Numbered from the stretch's first letter, positions 57,679-60,735 are shown. The stretch is DNA of 64,000 nucleotides from a virus (IMGVR_UViG_3300029305_011953:1-64000); one strand, 5' to 3'. A program made the numbers and translations. Notes: generated by a model from the sequence alone, not told the origin.

Positions 57679-58035
57679 TTAAGCCTCCAACTCGACTTTT
57701 TCGACGTTGTCAAACGCAAAAAGTGCGACTTTTTTTGCCTGATTTACTTCGCCTCGCAAACGATAACAAGTTGTTCTGTCTGTCCAACCCAAAGCCTTGA
57801 ATAGCTGTTGGGTTAATGCAAAGCTGTAAATTTCATAGCTATTGTCTTTGCAAACGTGGCTATTGATGGTGATGCACCCAGGCTCTTCGTTGGGGATGCT
57901 GCGAACAGCAAGCATTCTGGTGTCGGGGTTGACAAGCAAATGAATATACTTGGGCGAACCGAGTTCCTGTAATAACGTTTTATAAAAACGCATTCTGTAT
58001 TTTCGTGGGTCGATAGAAATAATTGCAGTAGACAT
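57679..58035 (-). CDS. Hypothetical protein; stand-alone copy of the domain shared with the next two genes
   Basis: KYIHLLVNPDTRMLAVR...LFKALGW...YRLRG aligns by eye with neighbours. Confidence 0.65.
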   Translation of the reverse strand: MSTAIISIDPRKYRMRFYKTLLQELGSPKYIHLLVNPDTRMLAVRSIPNEEPGCITINSHVCKDNSYEIYSFALTQQLFKALGWTDRTTCYRLRGEVNQAKKVALFAFDNVEKVELEA

Positions 58036-58050
58036 AAAATGTCCTCCTTA

Positions 58051-58836
58051 TTAAACAATGGATTGTTGAACCACCGCAGGAACGTTATCGGACGGTTGTT
58101 CGGAAGGCGGTTCGGGCGGAGGTGTAGCGGGTTTATTGGCTTCTTTAATAGAATAAACGGCGTAGCCTTCAAAAATGTTTATACGCATGGTTTGTTTATG
58201 CTCGTTCAAAGTCATACCGAACTGATTCTGCCAATTAGCAGGATAAATTGCGGTACGAGATGTTTTCGGCTTTTCGCCTTCTCTGACTGTGCGTTGATAA
58301 ACTTCCGTAGCGGTTAAATCGAATACGAGTAAATATTCGCCGTTTGCGTGGATGAGTTTGCCGAGGATTTTATACTTATAATGCGGATTCCATCCCATCA
58401 AATCTACGATTTTTGCGAAGAAAATCTTGCAAGTAATAGAACGAGTTTTGCGCTTTCCGTTGGAAGGATTACACCAAGGGAAAGAGTCTCTTGCGCCTTC
58501 TTCGCAGGGGCGCAGAGCAAGAATTTTCTTTTCACGATTCACGAGAACCTGGGCGTAGTTTGCATTCGGGAATTTAGACAAACACGCTGCGTTCGCAAAG
58601 AATTTACATTCATTAAAGGTAATAGAGGGTTCTTTAAGGTGGGCGAAGAATTCACGTCTTACGACTTGGAAGTCGTCGAAGTCAAAGTCTTCACTCATAT
58701 CAAGTAATTCATCCGTTTCCTTTAATTTAGGCGTTTGCTCGTCCGAAGACGGGGTAGGCAGATCGGCAGGGGAATCGTCCTGCACCTTTTCTAATAATCC
58801 TGCTAAAACATCTTTTTTTTCATTCATCTCATCCAT
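58051..58836 (-). CDS. Hypothetical protein homologous to the C-terminal domain of the adjacent recombinase
   Basis: DFDFDDFQVVRREFF...PSITF...NYAQVLVN..KKILALR...WNPHYKYKILG. Confidence 0.7.
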   Translation of the reverse strand: MDEMNEKKDVLAGLLEKVQDDSPADLPTPSSDEQTPKLKETDELLDMSEDFDFDDFQVVRREFFAHLKEPSITFNECKFFANAACLSKFPNANYAQVLVNREKKILALRPCEEGARDSFPWCNPSNGKRKTRSITCKIFFAKIVDLMGWNPHYKYKILGKLIHANGEYLLVFDLTATEVYQRTVREGEKPKTSRTAIYPANWQNQFGMTLNEHKQTMRINIFEGYAVYSIKEANKPATPPPEPPSEQPSDNVPAVVQQSIV

Positions 58837-58842
58837 TTCGTT

Positions 58843-60735
58843 TTACTCCTGTAATGAAACACCGCTTAATTCGGCGTGTATGTATTTTTTAAGTACGTCA
58901 AAGCCAGTCACATTGATACGTTTTCCCGTTTCATAGAGTTGACCTTGTAAGCGTAAATTCCAGTCTTGCTCGTTCTGGGTATCGAGCGTGTCAAGTGTTA
59001 ATTCGTGCAAATAATAGTCCTTCCCAAATGAACTCGTCCACTCTTGAGGGATAGCTCGTATTCTTTTGCCAGCCGTGGTTAGCGGTTTGGCTTGTTCGCT
59101 CTGTTCGTCTGGCGTAGCTCGTTCAAGCATATGTGGATTAAGGAAAGCCTCCGAGTTCTGGGCATCGAAAATATAAACGAGTTCGTCGTCTTTTTCATAG
59201 ATAGACCCGATTATTTTATAGCGACAGTCCGTATTCCAAGAAAACAATTCAAATAGTGTATCGTTGAACGCTGCCGAAGAGATATCTTTGGGAACATACT
59301 TCTTCATTGAGAGCTTGGAGCAATGAACGCCGTGGCGGTTATTTGCATCTGTGGCGCGAATTGCAAACTTCTTCTCAATAGGGTGGATAAGCAATTCAAT
59401 ATAATTTTTTGCGCCGAATTTACGGATGATTTCCGTGCTGAACTTGATTTTCTTACTGCCGAATGAAACAGAAGGTTTGCGGAAAGTATCGAAAAATTCC
59501 GAACGGGTAACTTCAAAACCACGCATATCAAAATCACCGGCAGAGAACTCGATTTTCAAATCTTCGTCTTTGCTTTGGGTAGGAACGCTTTCCGTGCCGT
59601 CAGCTTCGGTTATATAAACGCTTTGAGATGCGTTGATATAGTCGGTAAATTTGAAACCAGCCCAGCGTGGATTGATGGATACAAAACCTTTCAATTTACC
59701 TTCTTCGATTACTCGAAGTTCAGGCAAAAAAGCCTTATTCCTAAACTTTGCGTTGTCGAGCATATGCTGAACGGCGATAAAGTCATCTCTGGACACGATA
59801 GCCTCGTGGTGATTAAAATATCGGCTTTGCGGTCTTTTTCCGTAATTCTTTTTAGACTTGTGATCGTGGTAATCGGGGGTGTAGGTTTTTCTTGTCAATA
59901 CATCCCCACAATGACGTTCATTTCTTAATATTTGAACCACGCCGTTTGCCGTCCATTTCACGTTTCCAAGATAGGACTTTCGTTCGAGGGCGTTCAATGC
60001 CTCGGCGATATGCTTTGTGGAATAGCCGTATAAATACATATAAAAGACCAGTTTAACGGTGGGGGCTTCGTCCTCATTAATGACGAGATTGCCTTCGGCA
60101 TCGTGCGTGTAACCGAGCAGTTTCGGAGTAAGAGGGATACCGTTATCCAAACGCATACGAAGGGATGTTTCCATACTTCGACTGCGGGTATGAGATTCTT
60201 CTTCCGCCATTGTTGCTTGGAAGGTGAGAGCCAATTGCGCATCGTCATTCAAAGAGAAGATTGCTTCGGATTCAAAGAAAACGCCTACCCGACGTTTAAG
60301 GTGCGCAAGGCTACGGACAACGCCAATGAAGTCTTCCAGGTTTCTGGCGAAACGAGAGACGCTTTTCGTGATAATCATATCGAACTTACTTGCTTTGGCA
60401 TCTTCAATCATCTGCATGAACTCTTGACGGTGTTCCTTATTCGTACCGCTTTTTCCTTCGTCGGCATAAATTTTTACAAGTGTCCAGTTAGGGTGCTGAC
60501 GGACGAAATCTTCATAATACTTCTTCTGTAATTCAAAGGATGTTGTTTGGCGAATATCGTCAGTTGAAACACGAACGTAAATAGCAACACGCTGATGGAT
60601 GTCATTATCATAGTAATCCGTTTCCTTTTCGGCGGGTATGTATTCGTAATTATCGGGGTCAATCCGTACTTGCATACGTTGACGGGTCTTCGCCTTCTTT
60701 TGGGCGAGGAGTTCTCTTTTTTCTATATCAATCAT
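58843..60735 (-). CDS. Large serine recombinase 3 with extra C-terminal domain
   Basis: AIYVRVST, KSVSRFARN, recombinase domain; no Cys Zn ribbon seen; DFDMRGFEVTRSEFF domain at ~59164-59535. Confidence 0.9.
   Translation of the reverse strand: MIDIEKRELLAQKKAKTRQRMQVRIDPDNYEYIPAEKETDYYDNDIHQRVAIYVRVSTDDIRQTTSFELQKKYYEDFVRQHPNWTLVKIYADEGKSGTNKEHRQEFMQMIEDAKASKFDMIITKSVSRFARNLEDFIGVVRSLAHLKRRVGVFFESEAIFSLNDDAQLALTFQATMAEEESHTRSRSMETSLRMRLDNGIPLTPKLLGYTHDAEGNLVINEDEAPTVKLVFYMYLYGYSTKHIAEALNALERKSYLGNVKWTANGVVQILRNERHCGDVLTRKTYTPDYHDHKSKKNYGKRPQSRYFNHHEAIVSRDDFIAVQHMLDNAKFRNKAFLPELRVIEEGKLKGFVSINPRWAGFKFTDYINASQSVYITEADGTESVPTQSKDEDLKIEFSAGDFDMRGFEVTRSEFFDTFRKPSVSFGSKKIKFSTEIIRKFGAKNYIELLIHPIEKKFAIRATDANNRHGVHCSKLSMKKYVPKDISSAAFNDTLFELFSWNTDCRYKIIGSIYEKDDELVYIFDAQNSEAFLNPHMLERATPDEQSEQAKPLTTAGKRIRAIPQEWTSSFGKDYYLHELTLDTLDTQNEQDWNLRLQGQLYETGKRINVTGFDVLKKYIHAELSGVSLQE

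What the first reader, a model, noticed from the sequence alone, without database searches (positions are those of the whole stretch)
57679..60735. Large serine recombinase whose extra C-terminal domain is repeated as two separate downstream genes
Seen: the recombinase tail (DFDMRGFEVTRSEFF..PSVSF..NYIELLIH..KKFAIR..WNTDCRYKIIG..YIFD, ~59164-59535) aligns by eye with gene 58051-58836 (DFDFDDFQVVRREFF..PSITF..NYAQVLVN..KILALR..WNPHYKYKILG..LVFD). It also aligns with all of 57679-58035 (KYIHLLVN..MLAVR..LGW..YRLRG..FAFD). No Cys Zn ribbon is visible in this recombinase. Known: large serine recombinases normally use a Zn-ribbon/coiled coil plus a separate directionality factor. Inference: three co-transcribed copies of one small beta-rich domain may hetero-oligomerise to control directionality or target choice. 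This is the best candidate for an undescribed recombination system.
Basis: partly seen in the sequence, partly recalled or inferred. Interest (0 to 1): 0.78.

Follow-up and report, generated by a model that had tools for sequence, protein, structure and literature searches.

The report
Serine recombinase with triplicated new domain
A very common gut-phage gene cassette encodes a working serine recombinase that has swapped its usual zinc-ribbon/coiled-coil end for a new beta-barrel domain, and carries two free copies of that domain as the next two genes. This points to a recombinase built from separate subunits, whose reaction is still unknown.

Summary
The tail of the 630-aa recombinase (B, aa ~399-581) is homologous to the 261-aa protein C (BLASTP 2e-20; profiles 99.9%, E 1e-33). 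It is also homologous to the 118-aa protein D (1e-8; profiles 96.8%).

B has intact catalytic motifs and a Recombinase domain, but no zinc ribbon and no predicted long coiled coil. AlphaFold2 places a confident beta-barrel there instead, built as (beta-beta-alpha-beta-beta) twice. Its best PDB matches are only weak: MraZ at Z 3.4-3.5 and plant B3 domains.

The gene order A-B-C-D-E-F is invariant in 67 of 80 Clostridia genome loci. Most of the other 13 are cut by contig ends.
- A is a dead resolvase domain.
- E and F are ParB-fold proteins.
- B-C-D is the core kept in the most distant variant.

In Streptococcus phage phi1207.3/Tn1207.1 and some gut phages the system is split. A short B-like recombinase is followed by a free barrel protein (Orf3; hhalign 96.7%).

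A complex prediction of the B tail with C passes: ipSAE 0.72, best control 0.01. Paralogy may inflate this score.

The cassette is not tied to the phage. Related prophages lack it, and Anaerotignum neopropionicum carries it alone as an ~8-kb island.

The reaction and its DNA sites remain unknown. This scan had already flagged the same cassette on other DNA.

The parts
61561..61908 (-). XRE-family HTH regulator upstream of the cassette
   Evidence: ORF. Homologues carry HTH_3/HTH_19/HTH_31 in every related locus. It is kept with the cassette in the stand-alone island of A. neopropionicum.
62050..62409 (+). Second XRE-family HTH regulator, divergent, leading the rightward early operon
   Evidence: A homologue is also present in the stand-alone island, in the other orientation.
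61505..61541 (-). Terminator-like hairpin with a T run after the XRE gene, so genes A-F probably have their own promoter
   Evidence: Read directly from the sequence.
60728..61408 (-). A: catalytically dead resolvase-domain protein. The likely start is Met24 of the listed 249-aa ORF, giving 226 aa.
   Evidence: Pfam Resolvase E 3.4e-5, aa 102-193. YIRYFN stands in place of YVRVST and SNVSKD in place of SRFARN. Homologues are 200-280 aa long. A is absent from Lachnospiraceae phage versions and is replaced by a P-loop protein in G005.
58843..60735 (-). B: active-looking serine recombinase, 630 aa. Layout: catalytic domain aa 50-191, Recombinase domain aa 221-327, short conserved element to ~aa 374, acidic disordered linker, barrel domain, C-terminal region.
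   Evidence: Pfam PF00239 E 3.3e-25 and PF07508 E 5e-21, with no PF13408. PHROG 95 integrase, E 3e-79. Motifs YVRVST, DEGKSG and SRFARN are present. AlphaFold2 model of the tail.
59134..59541 (-). Copy 1 of the domain: B aa 399-534 (N-terminal strand motif plus barrel)
   Evidence: pLDDT is above 90 for aa ~419-534, while the strand motif at aa ~386-414 is below 50 in the monomer model.
58051..58836 (-). C: 261-aa protein. Acidic N-terminus, copy 2 of the domain (aa 48-183, nt 58288-58695), shared C-terminal motif, low-complexity tail.
   Evidence: AlphaFold2 mean pLDDT 83, above 90 for aa ~35-215. 1878 relatives, all unnamed or 'hypothetical'. No Pfam, NCBIfam, PHROG or PADLOC family.
57679..58035 (-). 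D: 118-aa protein, copy 3 of the domain (barrel only, without the N-terminal strand motif)
   Evidence: Present in 79 of 80 genome loci.
56707..57672 (-). E: 321-aa ParB-like protein (IVDGHNR motif plus a putative HTH)
   Evidence: Weak PHROG ParB-like hits. Present in 78 of 80 loci.
55715..56710 (-). F: 331-aa ParB-fold DUF6551 protein with an acidic tail
   Evidence: Pfam PF20188 E 9e-31. PHROG 1033 ParB-like, E 4e-18. Tail pI 4.05. Phage DUF6551 fusions bind CTP or ATP according to bioRxiv 10.1101/2025.10.10.680097.
55676..55712 (.). Hairpin with T runs between the convergent genes F and LSR2 (two-way terminator)
   Evidence: Read directly from the sequence.
52698..55645 (+). Context, not part of the cassette: two canonical large serine recombinases with zinc ribbons, convergent with the cassette
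   Evidence: Pfam Resolvase, Recombinase and Zn_ribbon_recom in both. A gene of this kind lies within 4 kb of F in 34 of the 53 loci that have enough flank. The pair sits elsewhere in the related phage G004.

Best explanation
This is a composite serine-recombinase machine.

Proposed roles:
- B is the only catalytic subunit.
- Its zinc-ribbon and coiled-coil module, which in large serine integrases reads the outer half of the att sites and gates directionality, has been replaced by a flexible linker plus a new beta-barrel domain.
- C and D are free copies of that barrel. They join B's complex by barrel-to-strand or barrel-to-barrel contacts, and probably by sitting on the same or neighbouring DNA sites.
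- In that position they would act as non-catalytic architectural or gating subunits that decide when, and on which sites, B recombines.
- A, a dead catalytic domain, and the ParB-fold proteins E and F are further optional accessories.

The cassette with its two XRE regulators is a self-contained unit. It is not the phage's main integrase. Its most likely reaction is site-specific recombination (excision and integration, or resolution) of the DNA that carries it.

Shown:
- Homology of the three copies.
- Loss of the zinc ribbon and coiled coil.
- Strict co-occurrence of the genes.
- The fused-versus-split relation with Orf2/Orf3.
- Independence of the cassette from the phage.

Inferred:
- Physical assembly of B, C and D.
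- DNA binding by the barrel.
- The reaction itself.
For: Homology of the three copies: BLASTP 2e-20, 1e-8 and 8e-4. Profiles give 99.9%, 96.8% and 93.2%.

B looks active and is integrase-like up to aa ~330 only. There is no PF13408 in B or in its listed relatives, of which 1835 clusters matched. The AlphaFold2 tail model shows a disordered linker, a confident barrel, and no long helices.

Operon packing is tight, with gaps of -8 to +15 nt. The order A-B-C-D-E-F is kept in 67 of 80 loci, and most of the rest are cut by contig ends. B-C-D is the part kept in the most distant variant, G005, where B is 38% identical.

The fused-versus-split argument:
- phi1207.3 Orf2 (370 aa) matches B aa 5-358 at 37% identity, E 2e-67, and stops before the linker.
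- The next gene, Orf3 (138 aa), is the barrel: hhalign 96.7%, E 3.3e-10.
- The same holds in gut phage NatCom_18656: 95.5%.

Complex prediction of B aa 395-630 with C aa 40-225:
- ipSAE 0.72, best of 3 controls 0.01.
- That mark was reached by 58 of 80 solved complexes and 2 of 110 mismatched pairs. These counts hold only roughly, because my own alignments were used.
- The runs agree in at least 86% of contacts, and the partner's pLDDT is at least 72.
- The confident contacts put B's strand motif (aa ~400-418) on C's barrel.

All three barrels are mildly basic (pI 8.5-8.8) and sit next to acidic linkers.

Independence from the phage:
- Genome G008 has two related prophages that carry a zinc-ribbon recombinase pair but no cassette.
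- In G004 the zinc-ribbon pair sits elsewhere.
- In A. neopropionicum the cassette is an ~8.2-kb island of 8 intact genes between ordinary metabolic genes.
Against: - No recombination site, junction or empty site was found, so no reaction is shown.
- DNA binding by the barrel rests only on weak fold resemblance (best Z 3.4-3.5, below the tool's trust level) and on mild basicity.
- The complex pass may be inflated by paralogy. The contact between the strand motif and the barrel is predicted within one chain in C's own model (pLDDT above 90). A model given two homologous chains can place the same contact between chains, and unrelated-protein controls do not test this.
- The short Orf2 of phi1207.3 has no such strand motif, so that contact cannot be how the split forms assemble.
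- No expression data were available.
Confidence: 0.45

Rival explanations
1. C and D are decoys or inhibitors rather than building blocks. As free copies of B's own recognition domain, they would occupy B's DNA sites, or cap its strand motif. That would keep the recombinase silent in the lysogen. The logic is that of Tn5 Inh, IS1 InsA, or the Mu repressor against the Mu transposase.
For: The facts are the same as for the main reading: paralogy, co-transcription and predicted contact of B's strand motif with C's barrel. The cassette lies on the repressor side of the switch, where silencing is expected. Truncated DNA-binding copies acting as inhibitors are an established pattern for transposases (my own knowledge).
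Against: In the split systems (phi1207.3 Orf2/Orf3) the recombinase has no barrel of its own. A pure decoy would then have nothing to compete with. Two different free copies, kept for so long and with family-specific features such as 5 conserved Cys in C, fit distinct structural roles better than simple competition.
Confidence: 0.2
2. The cassette is not a mobility device. It would instead be a maintenance, exclusion or defence module carried as prophage cargo. B, with the ParB-fold NTP-switch proteins E and F, would act on other DNA: resolving replicon multimers or attacking incoming elements. C and D would act as sensors or adaptors.
For: It sits in the lysogeny-side slot where prophages often carry exclusion genes. 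It is optional for the phage family. It survives intact without any phage in A. neopropionicum, which suggests it pays its own way. F belongs to a ParB-fold family related to DndB-type proteins.
Against: No PADLOC model matches any of the six proteins. There is no ParA and no nuclease or effector domain. No serine recombinase is part of any defence system known to me. An intact integrase-type catalytic core most simply implies site-specific recombination of its own element.
Confidence: 0.15
3. The barrel is not a DNA-binding module. It would be a protein- or ligand-binding regulatory domain, for example one that senses a host or phage signal. The free copies would buffer or relay that signal to B.
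For: There is no significant match to any DNA-binding fold. Conserved Cys residues are found only in C. The predicted contact is protein to peptide. Structural look-alikes in BFVD are small phage proteins of unknown role.
Against: The domain stands where large serine recombinases carry their second DNA-binding domain. Short Orf2-type enzymes would otherwise have only the Recombinase domain to read DNA. In two independent models the top-ranked weak fold hits are all DNA-binding pseudobarrels, MraZ and B3.
Confidence: 0.12
4. The similarity is chance, or C and D are decaying leftovers of a duplication with no function.
For: Pairwise identity is low, at 25-27%.
Against: E-values reach 1e-33 between profiles. 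ORFs of constant size are intact in 79-80 of 80 loci across many Clostridia families. The domain family has 2498 clusters at 50% identity. AlphaFold2 gives a confident common fold.
Confidence: 0.02

Closest known systems
Large serine recombinases / serine integrases (phiC31, Bxb1, A118/LI, SPbeta SprA, TP901-1, TnpX, CcrA/B)
   Same: Both have a catalytic Resolvase domain with the Ser nucleophile and a Recombinase domain. The best family hits are PHROG 95 integrase (E 3e-79) and partial matches to CcrB, CcrA and CcrC. Solved structures of TnpX, TP901-1 and SPbeta integrases match aa 48-282. Both are carried by prophages and mobile elements.
   Different: B has no zinc-ribbon domain and no predicted coiled coil. 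It has a disordered linker, a new beta-barrel and a C-terminal region instead. Its accessory proteins are paralogues of the enzyme's own domains, unlike any directionality factor known to me (gp3, gp47, SprB). It co-exists with canonical zinc-ribbon recombinases in the same phage.
Orf2/Orf3 of Streptococcus phage phi1207.3 / Tn1207.1 (and phi-m46.1-like S. suis prophages)
   Same: Orf2 is the closest annotated relative of B: 37% identity over aa 5-358, including B's N-terminal extension and the LKGFVxxNPxW element. Orf3 is a member of the barrel family, at hhalign 96.7%. The whole phage map is collinear with this one: YolD/UmuC, C5 methylase, McrB-like gene, replication, structural genes, lysis, zinc-ribbon recombinase pair.
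   Different: There the system is split and minimal: a 370-aa recombinase without a barrel plus one free barrel. It has no A, C-type, E or F. It lies ~0.9 kb from the prophage's left end and reads inward. No function has been published for orf2/orf3; the paper calls Orf2 a 'resolvase' and leaves Orf3 unannotated (PMC4260502).
MraZ / AbrB swapped-hairpin barrels and plant B3 DNA-binding pseudobarrels
   Same: The predicted topology is beta-beta-alpha-beta-beta repeated twice in one chain, as in MraZ. MraZ (1n0e) is the top hit of 48,161 chains for both independent models, and B3 domains (FUS3, RAV1, VRN1, ARF1) recur in the lists.
   Different: The scores are weak. MraZ gives Z 3.4 (rmsd 4.3 A, 96 aligned) and Z 3.5 (rmsd 6.2 A, 100 aligned); FUS3 gives Z 3.3. 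Foldseek finds nothing in the PDB; its best E is 0.05. There is no profile similarity to MraZ, at hhalign 0.2%. This is a resemblance only, not membership.
Regulators that share the DNA-binding domain of their transposase or recombinase (Tn5 Inh, IS1 InsA, Mu repressor/MuA), and the accessory-site subunits of Tn3/gamma-delta and Sin resolvase synaptosomes
   Same: Non-catalytic proteins that carry the enzyme's own recognition module are made from the same locus. They shape or block the recombination complex. This comparison is from my own knowledge and concerns working logic only.
   Different: Those are truncated products of the same gene, or extra copies of the whole enzyme. Here they are two old, diverged, separate genes, alongside a separate dead catalytic domain. 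No binding sites are known.

Membership tests
Large serine recombinase (serine integrase) family | N-terminal catalytic domain with the Ser nucleophile and conserved Arg/Asp residues | tested here: met
   PF00239 E 3.3e-25, aa 50-191. Motifs YVRVST, DEGKSG and SRFARN are present. B matches the catalytic domains of TnpX and TP901-1.
Large serine recombinase (serine integrase) family | Recombinase domain (RD) after helix E | tested here: met
   PF07508 E 5e-21, aa 221-327. B matches SPbeta integrase over aa 95-282.
Large serine recombinase (serine integrase) family | Zinc-ribbon domain (ZD) with four Cys | tested here: not met
   There is no PF13408 hit, while both neighbouring recombinases have one, and no listed relative of the B tail has one. 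B has only 3 Cys in total, and none of them is in aa 361-398 or 535-630. The AlphaFold2 tail model shows a linker plus a barrel.
Large serine recombinase (serine integrase) family | Coiled-coil motif inserted in the ZD that gates att-site pairing | tested here: inconclusive
   The tail model predicts no long helix. It shows only short helices of low confidence at aa ~564-624. Low pLDDT prevents a firm negative.
Large serine recombinase (serine integrase) family | Unidirectional attP x attB recombination reversed by a directionality factor | not testable with these tools
   No att sites were found.
phi1207.3/Tn1207.1 Orf2-Orf3 type recombinase pair | Orf2-like catalytic core, including the N-terminal extension and the element after the RD | tested here: met
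   tblastn gives 37% identity over B aa 5-358, E 2e-67. The C-terminal LRDFVVLDPSW of Orf2 aligns with LKGFVSINPRW of B.
phi1207.3/Tn1207.1 Orf2-Orf3 type recombinase pair | Orf3-like barrel protein encoded directly downstream | tested here: met
   Orf3 against the domain profile: hhalign 96.7%, E 3.3e-10, 114 columns. In this window the barrel is both fused to B and present free, twice.
MraZ/AbrB swapped-hairpin barrel | Fold match to a solved member | tested here: inconclusive
   1n0e_A ranks first for both models, but at Z 3.4 (rmsd 4.3 A, 96 aligned) and Z 3.5 (rmsd 6.2 A, 100 aligned). Foldseek finds nothing in the PDB.
MraZ/AbrB swapped-hairpin barrel | Detectable sequence-profile homology | tested here: not met
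   hhalign of the domain alignment (95 sequences) against 5 MraZ proteins gives probability 0.2%. Profile searches of the PDB with A1 and A2 found nothing relevant.
ParB-CTPase fold (proteins E and F) | ParB/Srx-type N-terminal domain | tested here: met
   This verdict is for F only. F: PF20188 (DUF6551) E 9e-31 and PHROG 1033, E 4e-18. E has only weak PHROG ParB-like hits, E 3e-3, so E is inconclusive.
Known anti-phage defence systems (PADLOC) | Any component matching a PADLOC model | tested here: not met
   None of the six proteins has a hit at E <= 0.01.

The most novel reading that the evidence does not exclude
This would be a new class of serine recombinase in which DNA-site recognition and gating are handed to exchangeable beta-barrel subunits of a previously unseen fold. 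The subunits can be fused (B), free (C, D, Orf3) or both, instead of the zinc ribbon, coiled coil and directionality factor. The ~8-kb cassette would be a self-mobile element that rides in gut prophages and chromosomes. If the barrels set the target, the system would be a naturally modular integrase.
Probability: 0.2. Interest if true: 0.85.

Novelty: new variant of a known kind. Interest (0 to 1): 0.66.

Why it matters
Large serine integrases are prized genome-engineering tools. Their site choice and one-way action are explained entirely by the zinc-ribbon and coiled-coil module and by directionality factors.

This is a large natural branch that has discarded that module. The recombinase has 1835 clusters at 90% identity. 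The domain has 2498 clusters at 50% identity. It occurs in Ca. Heliusvirales, described as a widespread gut phage lineage. In place of the lost module it uses a new barrel, supplied both in cis and as separate proteins.

Working out how it recognises DNA and is controlled would test whether the serine-recombinase core can be steered by detachable subunits. It would also give a function to orf2/orf3 of the macrolide-resistance elements phi1207.3 and Tn1207.1, which have been unexplained for two decades.

The barrel has no convincing match in the PDB; the best Z is 3.5, where the tool's typical best is 7-8. A solved structure would probably define a new or very divergent fold.

Tried and rejected
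1. Family libraries. Pfam, NCBIfam, PHROGs and PADLOC found nothing for C or D.

2. PDB by sequence, using profiles A1 and A2, found nothing relevant.

3. Foldseek against the PDB gave no match; the best E was 0.05, for sliding clamps at TM ~0.1.

4. hhalign of the domain against MraZ gave probability 0.2%.

5. ESM Atlas. For the whole protein C it returned only unnamed or 'integrase family' clusters. For the domain alone among named clusters it gave no usable hit.

6. Repeat searches for recombination sites.
- The cassette region, 55.4-62.4 kb, gave only short weak pairs.
- The whole window gave no long inverted repeats flanking a segment.
- The A. neopropionicum island gave only a 20-nt, 80% direct pair near both ends (L174 413-432 and 8313-8332), which may be chance.

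7. Public reads. Contigs of four independent gut metagenomes were laid on 46-64 kb.
- Long contigs of two studies bridge the LSR2/F junction and the whole cassette (X9 record 22, X10 record 3).
- No joint at the cassette suggested excision or inversion. Contigs drop rare forms, so this is not evidence of absence.

8. Empty-site search in 15 Anaerotignum genomes.
- The two flanks lie on different contigs in relatives.
- Homology stops at the ends of the host genes.
- No empty site or att core could be reconstructed.

9. Literature. No functional study of orf2/orf3, of DUF6551-linked recombinases or of zinc-ribbon-less large serine recombinases turned up in the held library.

10. The idea that attP lies in the 69-bp LSR2/F spacer was dropped. 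The two genes are adjacent in integrated copies on large chromosomal contigs and in a record classed as a provirus.

11. The idea that B is the phage's integrase was dropped.
- Related prophages carry the zinc-ribbon pair without the cassette.
- The cassette also occurs without any phage.

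
Full report
**What is there.** The minus strand of 55.7-61.9 kb holds a tight operon. In reading order it runs:
- an XRE regulator (61561-61908), followed by a terminator-like hairpin;
- A, a resolvase-domain protein without the catalytic Ser (60728-61408/61477);
- B, a 630-aa serine recombinase (58843-60735);
- C, 261 aa (58051-58836);
- D, 118 aa (57679-58035);
- E, 321 aa, ParB-like (56707-57672);
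- F, 331 aa, DUF6551 (55715-56710).

Gaps between the genes are -8, 6, 15, 6 and -4 nt. A second XRE gene diverges at 62050. Two canonical large serine recombinases with zinc ribbons (52698-55645) converge on F across a 69-bp spacer that holds a hairpin terminator.

- BLASTP of B against C gives E 2e-20 over ~200 residues. B against D gives 1e-8, and C against D gives 8e-4.
- I built family alignments from 80 independent genome loci. The hhalign results are 99.9% (E 1.3e-33), 96.8% (E 2.9e-10) and 93.2% (E 2.9e-7).
There is an N-terminal strand motif (DFDxxGFxVxRxEFF) and a C-terminal KPxT..R..P..W..FG..H motif. D is the bare core.

**B is a large serine recombinase only in its first half.**
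- Pfam finds Resolvase (aa 50-191) and Recombinase (aa 221-327) but no zinc ribbon, although it finds one in both neighbours.
- The catalytic motifs are intact.
- Solved integrases match only aa 48-282.
- The search with the B tail matched 1835 clusters at 90% identity. All those listed carry Resolvase and Recombinase, or Recombinase alone, and none carries PF13408.
- AlphaFold2 on aa 320-630 gives a small confident element (aa ~340-374), a disordered acidic linker, a confident barrel (aa ~419-534, pLDDT above 90) and a low-confidence C-terminal region with short helices only.

**The domain.**
- AlphaFold2 on C, with 97 sequences, gives mean pLDDT 83 and above 90 for aa ~35-215. The topology is beta-beta-alpha-beta-beta, twice.
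- Foldseek finds nothing in the PDB.
- The exhaustive VIA search puts MraZ (1n0e) first for both independent models. For the C model this is Z 3.4, rmsd 4.3 A, 96 residues aligned. For the B tail it is Z 3.5, rmsd 6.2 A, 100 aligned. Plant B3 DNA-binding pseudobarrels recur in the lists: FUS3 at Z 3.3 and 2.4, RAV1 at 2.6, VRN1 at 2.7 and 2.0, ARF1 at 2.2.
- These scores are far below the tool's trust level, where typical best Z is 7-8. There is also no profile similarity to MraZ.
- I therefore treat 'MraZ/B3-like DNA-binding pseudobarrel' as a lead, and the fold as otherwise unmatched.
- In BFVD the look-alikes are small uncharacterised phage proteins.
- A profile of the domain finds 2498 clusters at 50% identity. 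Most are free proteins of 120-330 aa, and a few are ~630-aa recombinases.
- All three copies are mildly basic, at pI 8.5-8.8.
- The C family has five conserved Cys that B lacks.

**Conservation.**
- In 10 metagenome loci and 80 species-representative genome loci, the order A-B-C-D-E-F is invariant wherever the contig allows. The hosts include Oscillospiraceae, Christensenellaceae, Lachnospiraceae, Anaerotignum and Flavonifractor, among others.
- 67 of 80 loci are complete, D is present in 79 of 80, and most gaps are contig ends.
- A is dispensable. Lachnospiraceae phages of Ca. Heliusvirales go straight from the repressor to B.
- In the most distant variant (G005, B 38% identical) a P-loop protein stands in A's place and E and F are missing, but B-C-D remain together.

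**Split forms.**
- A note from an earlier agent pointed to phi1207.3, and I tested the lead.
- Orf2 of Streptococcus phage phi1207.3/Tn1207.1 (370 aa) matches B aa 5-358 at 37% identity (E 2e-67). It ends just after the LKGFVxxNPxW-type element, before B's linker.
- The next gene, Orf3 (138 aa, unannotated), belongs to the barrel family: hhalign 96.7%, E 3.3e-10.
- A gut phage, NatCom_18656, has the same pair: 399 aa plus 145 aa, at 95.5%.
- Being fused in one lineage and separate in another is classic evidence that two parts work together.
- The publication on phi1207.3 calls Orf2 a resolvase and gives Orf3 no function (PMC4260502).
- The gene map of this phage is collinear with that of phi1207.3.

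**Predicted contact.**
- B aa 395-630 with C aa 40-225 scores ipSAE 0.72, against a best of 3 controls of 0.01.
- That mark was reached by 58 of 80 solved complexes and 2 of 110 mismatched pairs. The counts hold only roughly here, because my own alignments were used.
- The runs agree in at least 86% of contacts, and the partner's pLDDT is at least 72.
- The confident contacts lay B's strand motif (aa ~400-418) on C's barrel (C aa 96-107, 114-120, 134-142, 162-171).
- Caveat: in C's own model the equivalent motif packs on C's barrel within the same chain. Two paralogous chains can therefore yield the same contact between chains without real binding, and the unrelated-protein controls do not address this.
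- In B's monomer model that motif is of low confidence, and D has the barrel but no motif. Both facts are compatible with a strand-swap chain, but neither proves one.

**What the cassette is not.** It is not the phage's obligatory integrase.
- The window is part of a 73,989-bp IMG/VR provirus of the Heliusvirales type.
- In the related phage G004 the zinc-ribbon pair sits in the early region, not next to F.
- Genome G008 has two related prophages with zinc-ribbon pairs and no cassette, plus a third region with the cassette.
- In Anaerotignum neopropionicum DSM 3847 the cassette is an island of about 8.2 kb. It contains only two XRE genes and intact A-F, and lies between NRPS-like/MFS genes and NMO/permease/AraC/sugar-kinase genes. 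No homologue of any other gene of this phage lies within -20 kb or +50 kb.
- A canonical recombinase gene lies within 4 kb of F in 34 of 53 loci with enough flank. The association is frequent but not obligatory.

**What it does.** This is not shown.
- I found no recombination sites, junctions or empty sites.
- In two independent cattle-gut metagenome studies, long contigs bridge the LSR2/F junction and the whole cassette unchanged.

My best reading, at confidence 0.45, is a composite recombinase.
- B catalyses.
- The barrel replaces the zinc ribbon and coiled coil as the recognition and assembly module.
- C and D are non-catalytic subunits that assemble with B and set when and where it acts.
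- The unit recombines the DNA that carries it.

Rival readings are that C and D act as decoy inhibitors, that the cassette is a maintenance or defence module acting on other DNA, or that the barrel is a signal-binding domain rather than a DNA-binding one.

**Standing.** This is a new variant of a known kind, namely serine recombinases. It is widespread and unstudied, and its domain has no convincing structural relative. The same cassette had already been flagged by this scan on other genomes, with two follow-ups reaching similar verdicts. That did not enter my scoring.

Noticed in passing
window 30927-31018, 32330-32421, 52705-52796: A 92-nt element occurs three times, at 85% and 63% identity to the first copy. 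The third copy lies at the start of the first zinc-ribbon recombinase gene. It looks like a shared promoter or leader.
   Followed up: no
window 23891-23919, 23926-23954, 55644-55672: A 29-nt repeat ending in AAAGTAGGCGCAACC stands twice in tandem at 23.9 kb and once in the 69-bp spacer between LSR2 and F. Its 15-mer core has three matches allowing up to 2 mismatches: two exact ones in repeat copies (23905, 55658) and one unrelated 2-mismatch hit at 7109. None of 100 shuffles reached three. Among all fetched loci it recurs only in the 95%-identical L014. Its meaning is unknown.
   Followed up: partly
window 51432-52148: The P-loop kinase gene is bracketed by a 40-nt duplicated terminator. It is cleanly absent from one independent metagenome contig, with a joint from 51444 to 52123. 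In four metagenomes this bin's summed contig depth is about 40 to 750 times that of its neighbours, so the gene circulates widely on other DNA.
   Followed up: partly
L001-L006 ~14.3-18.4 kb; L014-L093 downstream of F: The canonical recombinases next to the cassette come as a pair (~440 + ~530 aa) or a trio (~550 + ~300 + ~530 aa, the middle one lacking the catalytic domain). In loci with an identical cassette, the DNA beyond the first recombinase differs: phage lysis genes, YodL/DUF3846 genes, a helicase, or FtsK. Hybrid ORFs such as FtsK-Resolvase and YodL-Zn-ribbon also occur. This suggests rearrangement or nested insertion inside the recombinase array.
   Followed up: no
window 60728-61477: The dead resolvase-domain protein A is optional. 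It is absent from Lachnospiraceae phage versions. In provirus G005 a 323-aa P-loop (GDPGDGKT) protein stands in its place. The listed GTG start at 61477 lies ~30 nt past the upstream terminator hairpin, so Met24 is the more likely start.
   Followed up: partly
window 58288-58695 (protein C): Five Cys (C77, C85, C111, C122, C136) are invariant or nearly so in the C family but absent from the B tail. C85 is nearly invariant across 97 diverse domain proteins. A metal or redox site is possible.
   Followed up: no
G006:C4 ~60.3-68.6 kb (loci L173/L174), Anaerotignum neopropionicum DSM 3847: A stand-alone ~8.2-kb island holds just two XRE genes plus A-F in a cultured isolate, flanked by ordinary metabolic genes. 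It is a convenient organism for experiments.
   Followed up: yes
window 55756-55833 (acidic tail of F): In two metagenomes a 76-nt stretch of F's acidic tail is replaced by 70 other letters, so this low-complexity tail is hypervariable.
   Followed up: no
G000 69.6-72 kb (L013 8638-11250) and window 5611-10611: The phage carries a YolD-like/UmuC (IMS) pair with a CI-like HTH gene, one confirmed C5 DNA methylase plus an adjacent equal-sized ORF that was not tested, and a 916-aa McrB-like AAA_5 protein. phi1207.3 has the same kinds of cargo in the same order.
   Followed up: partly
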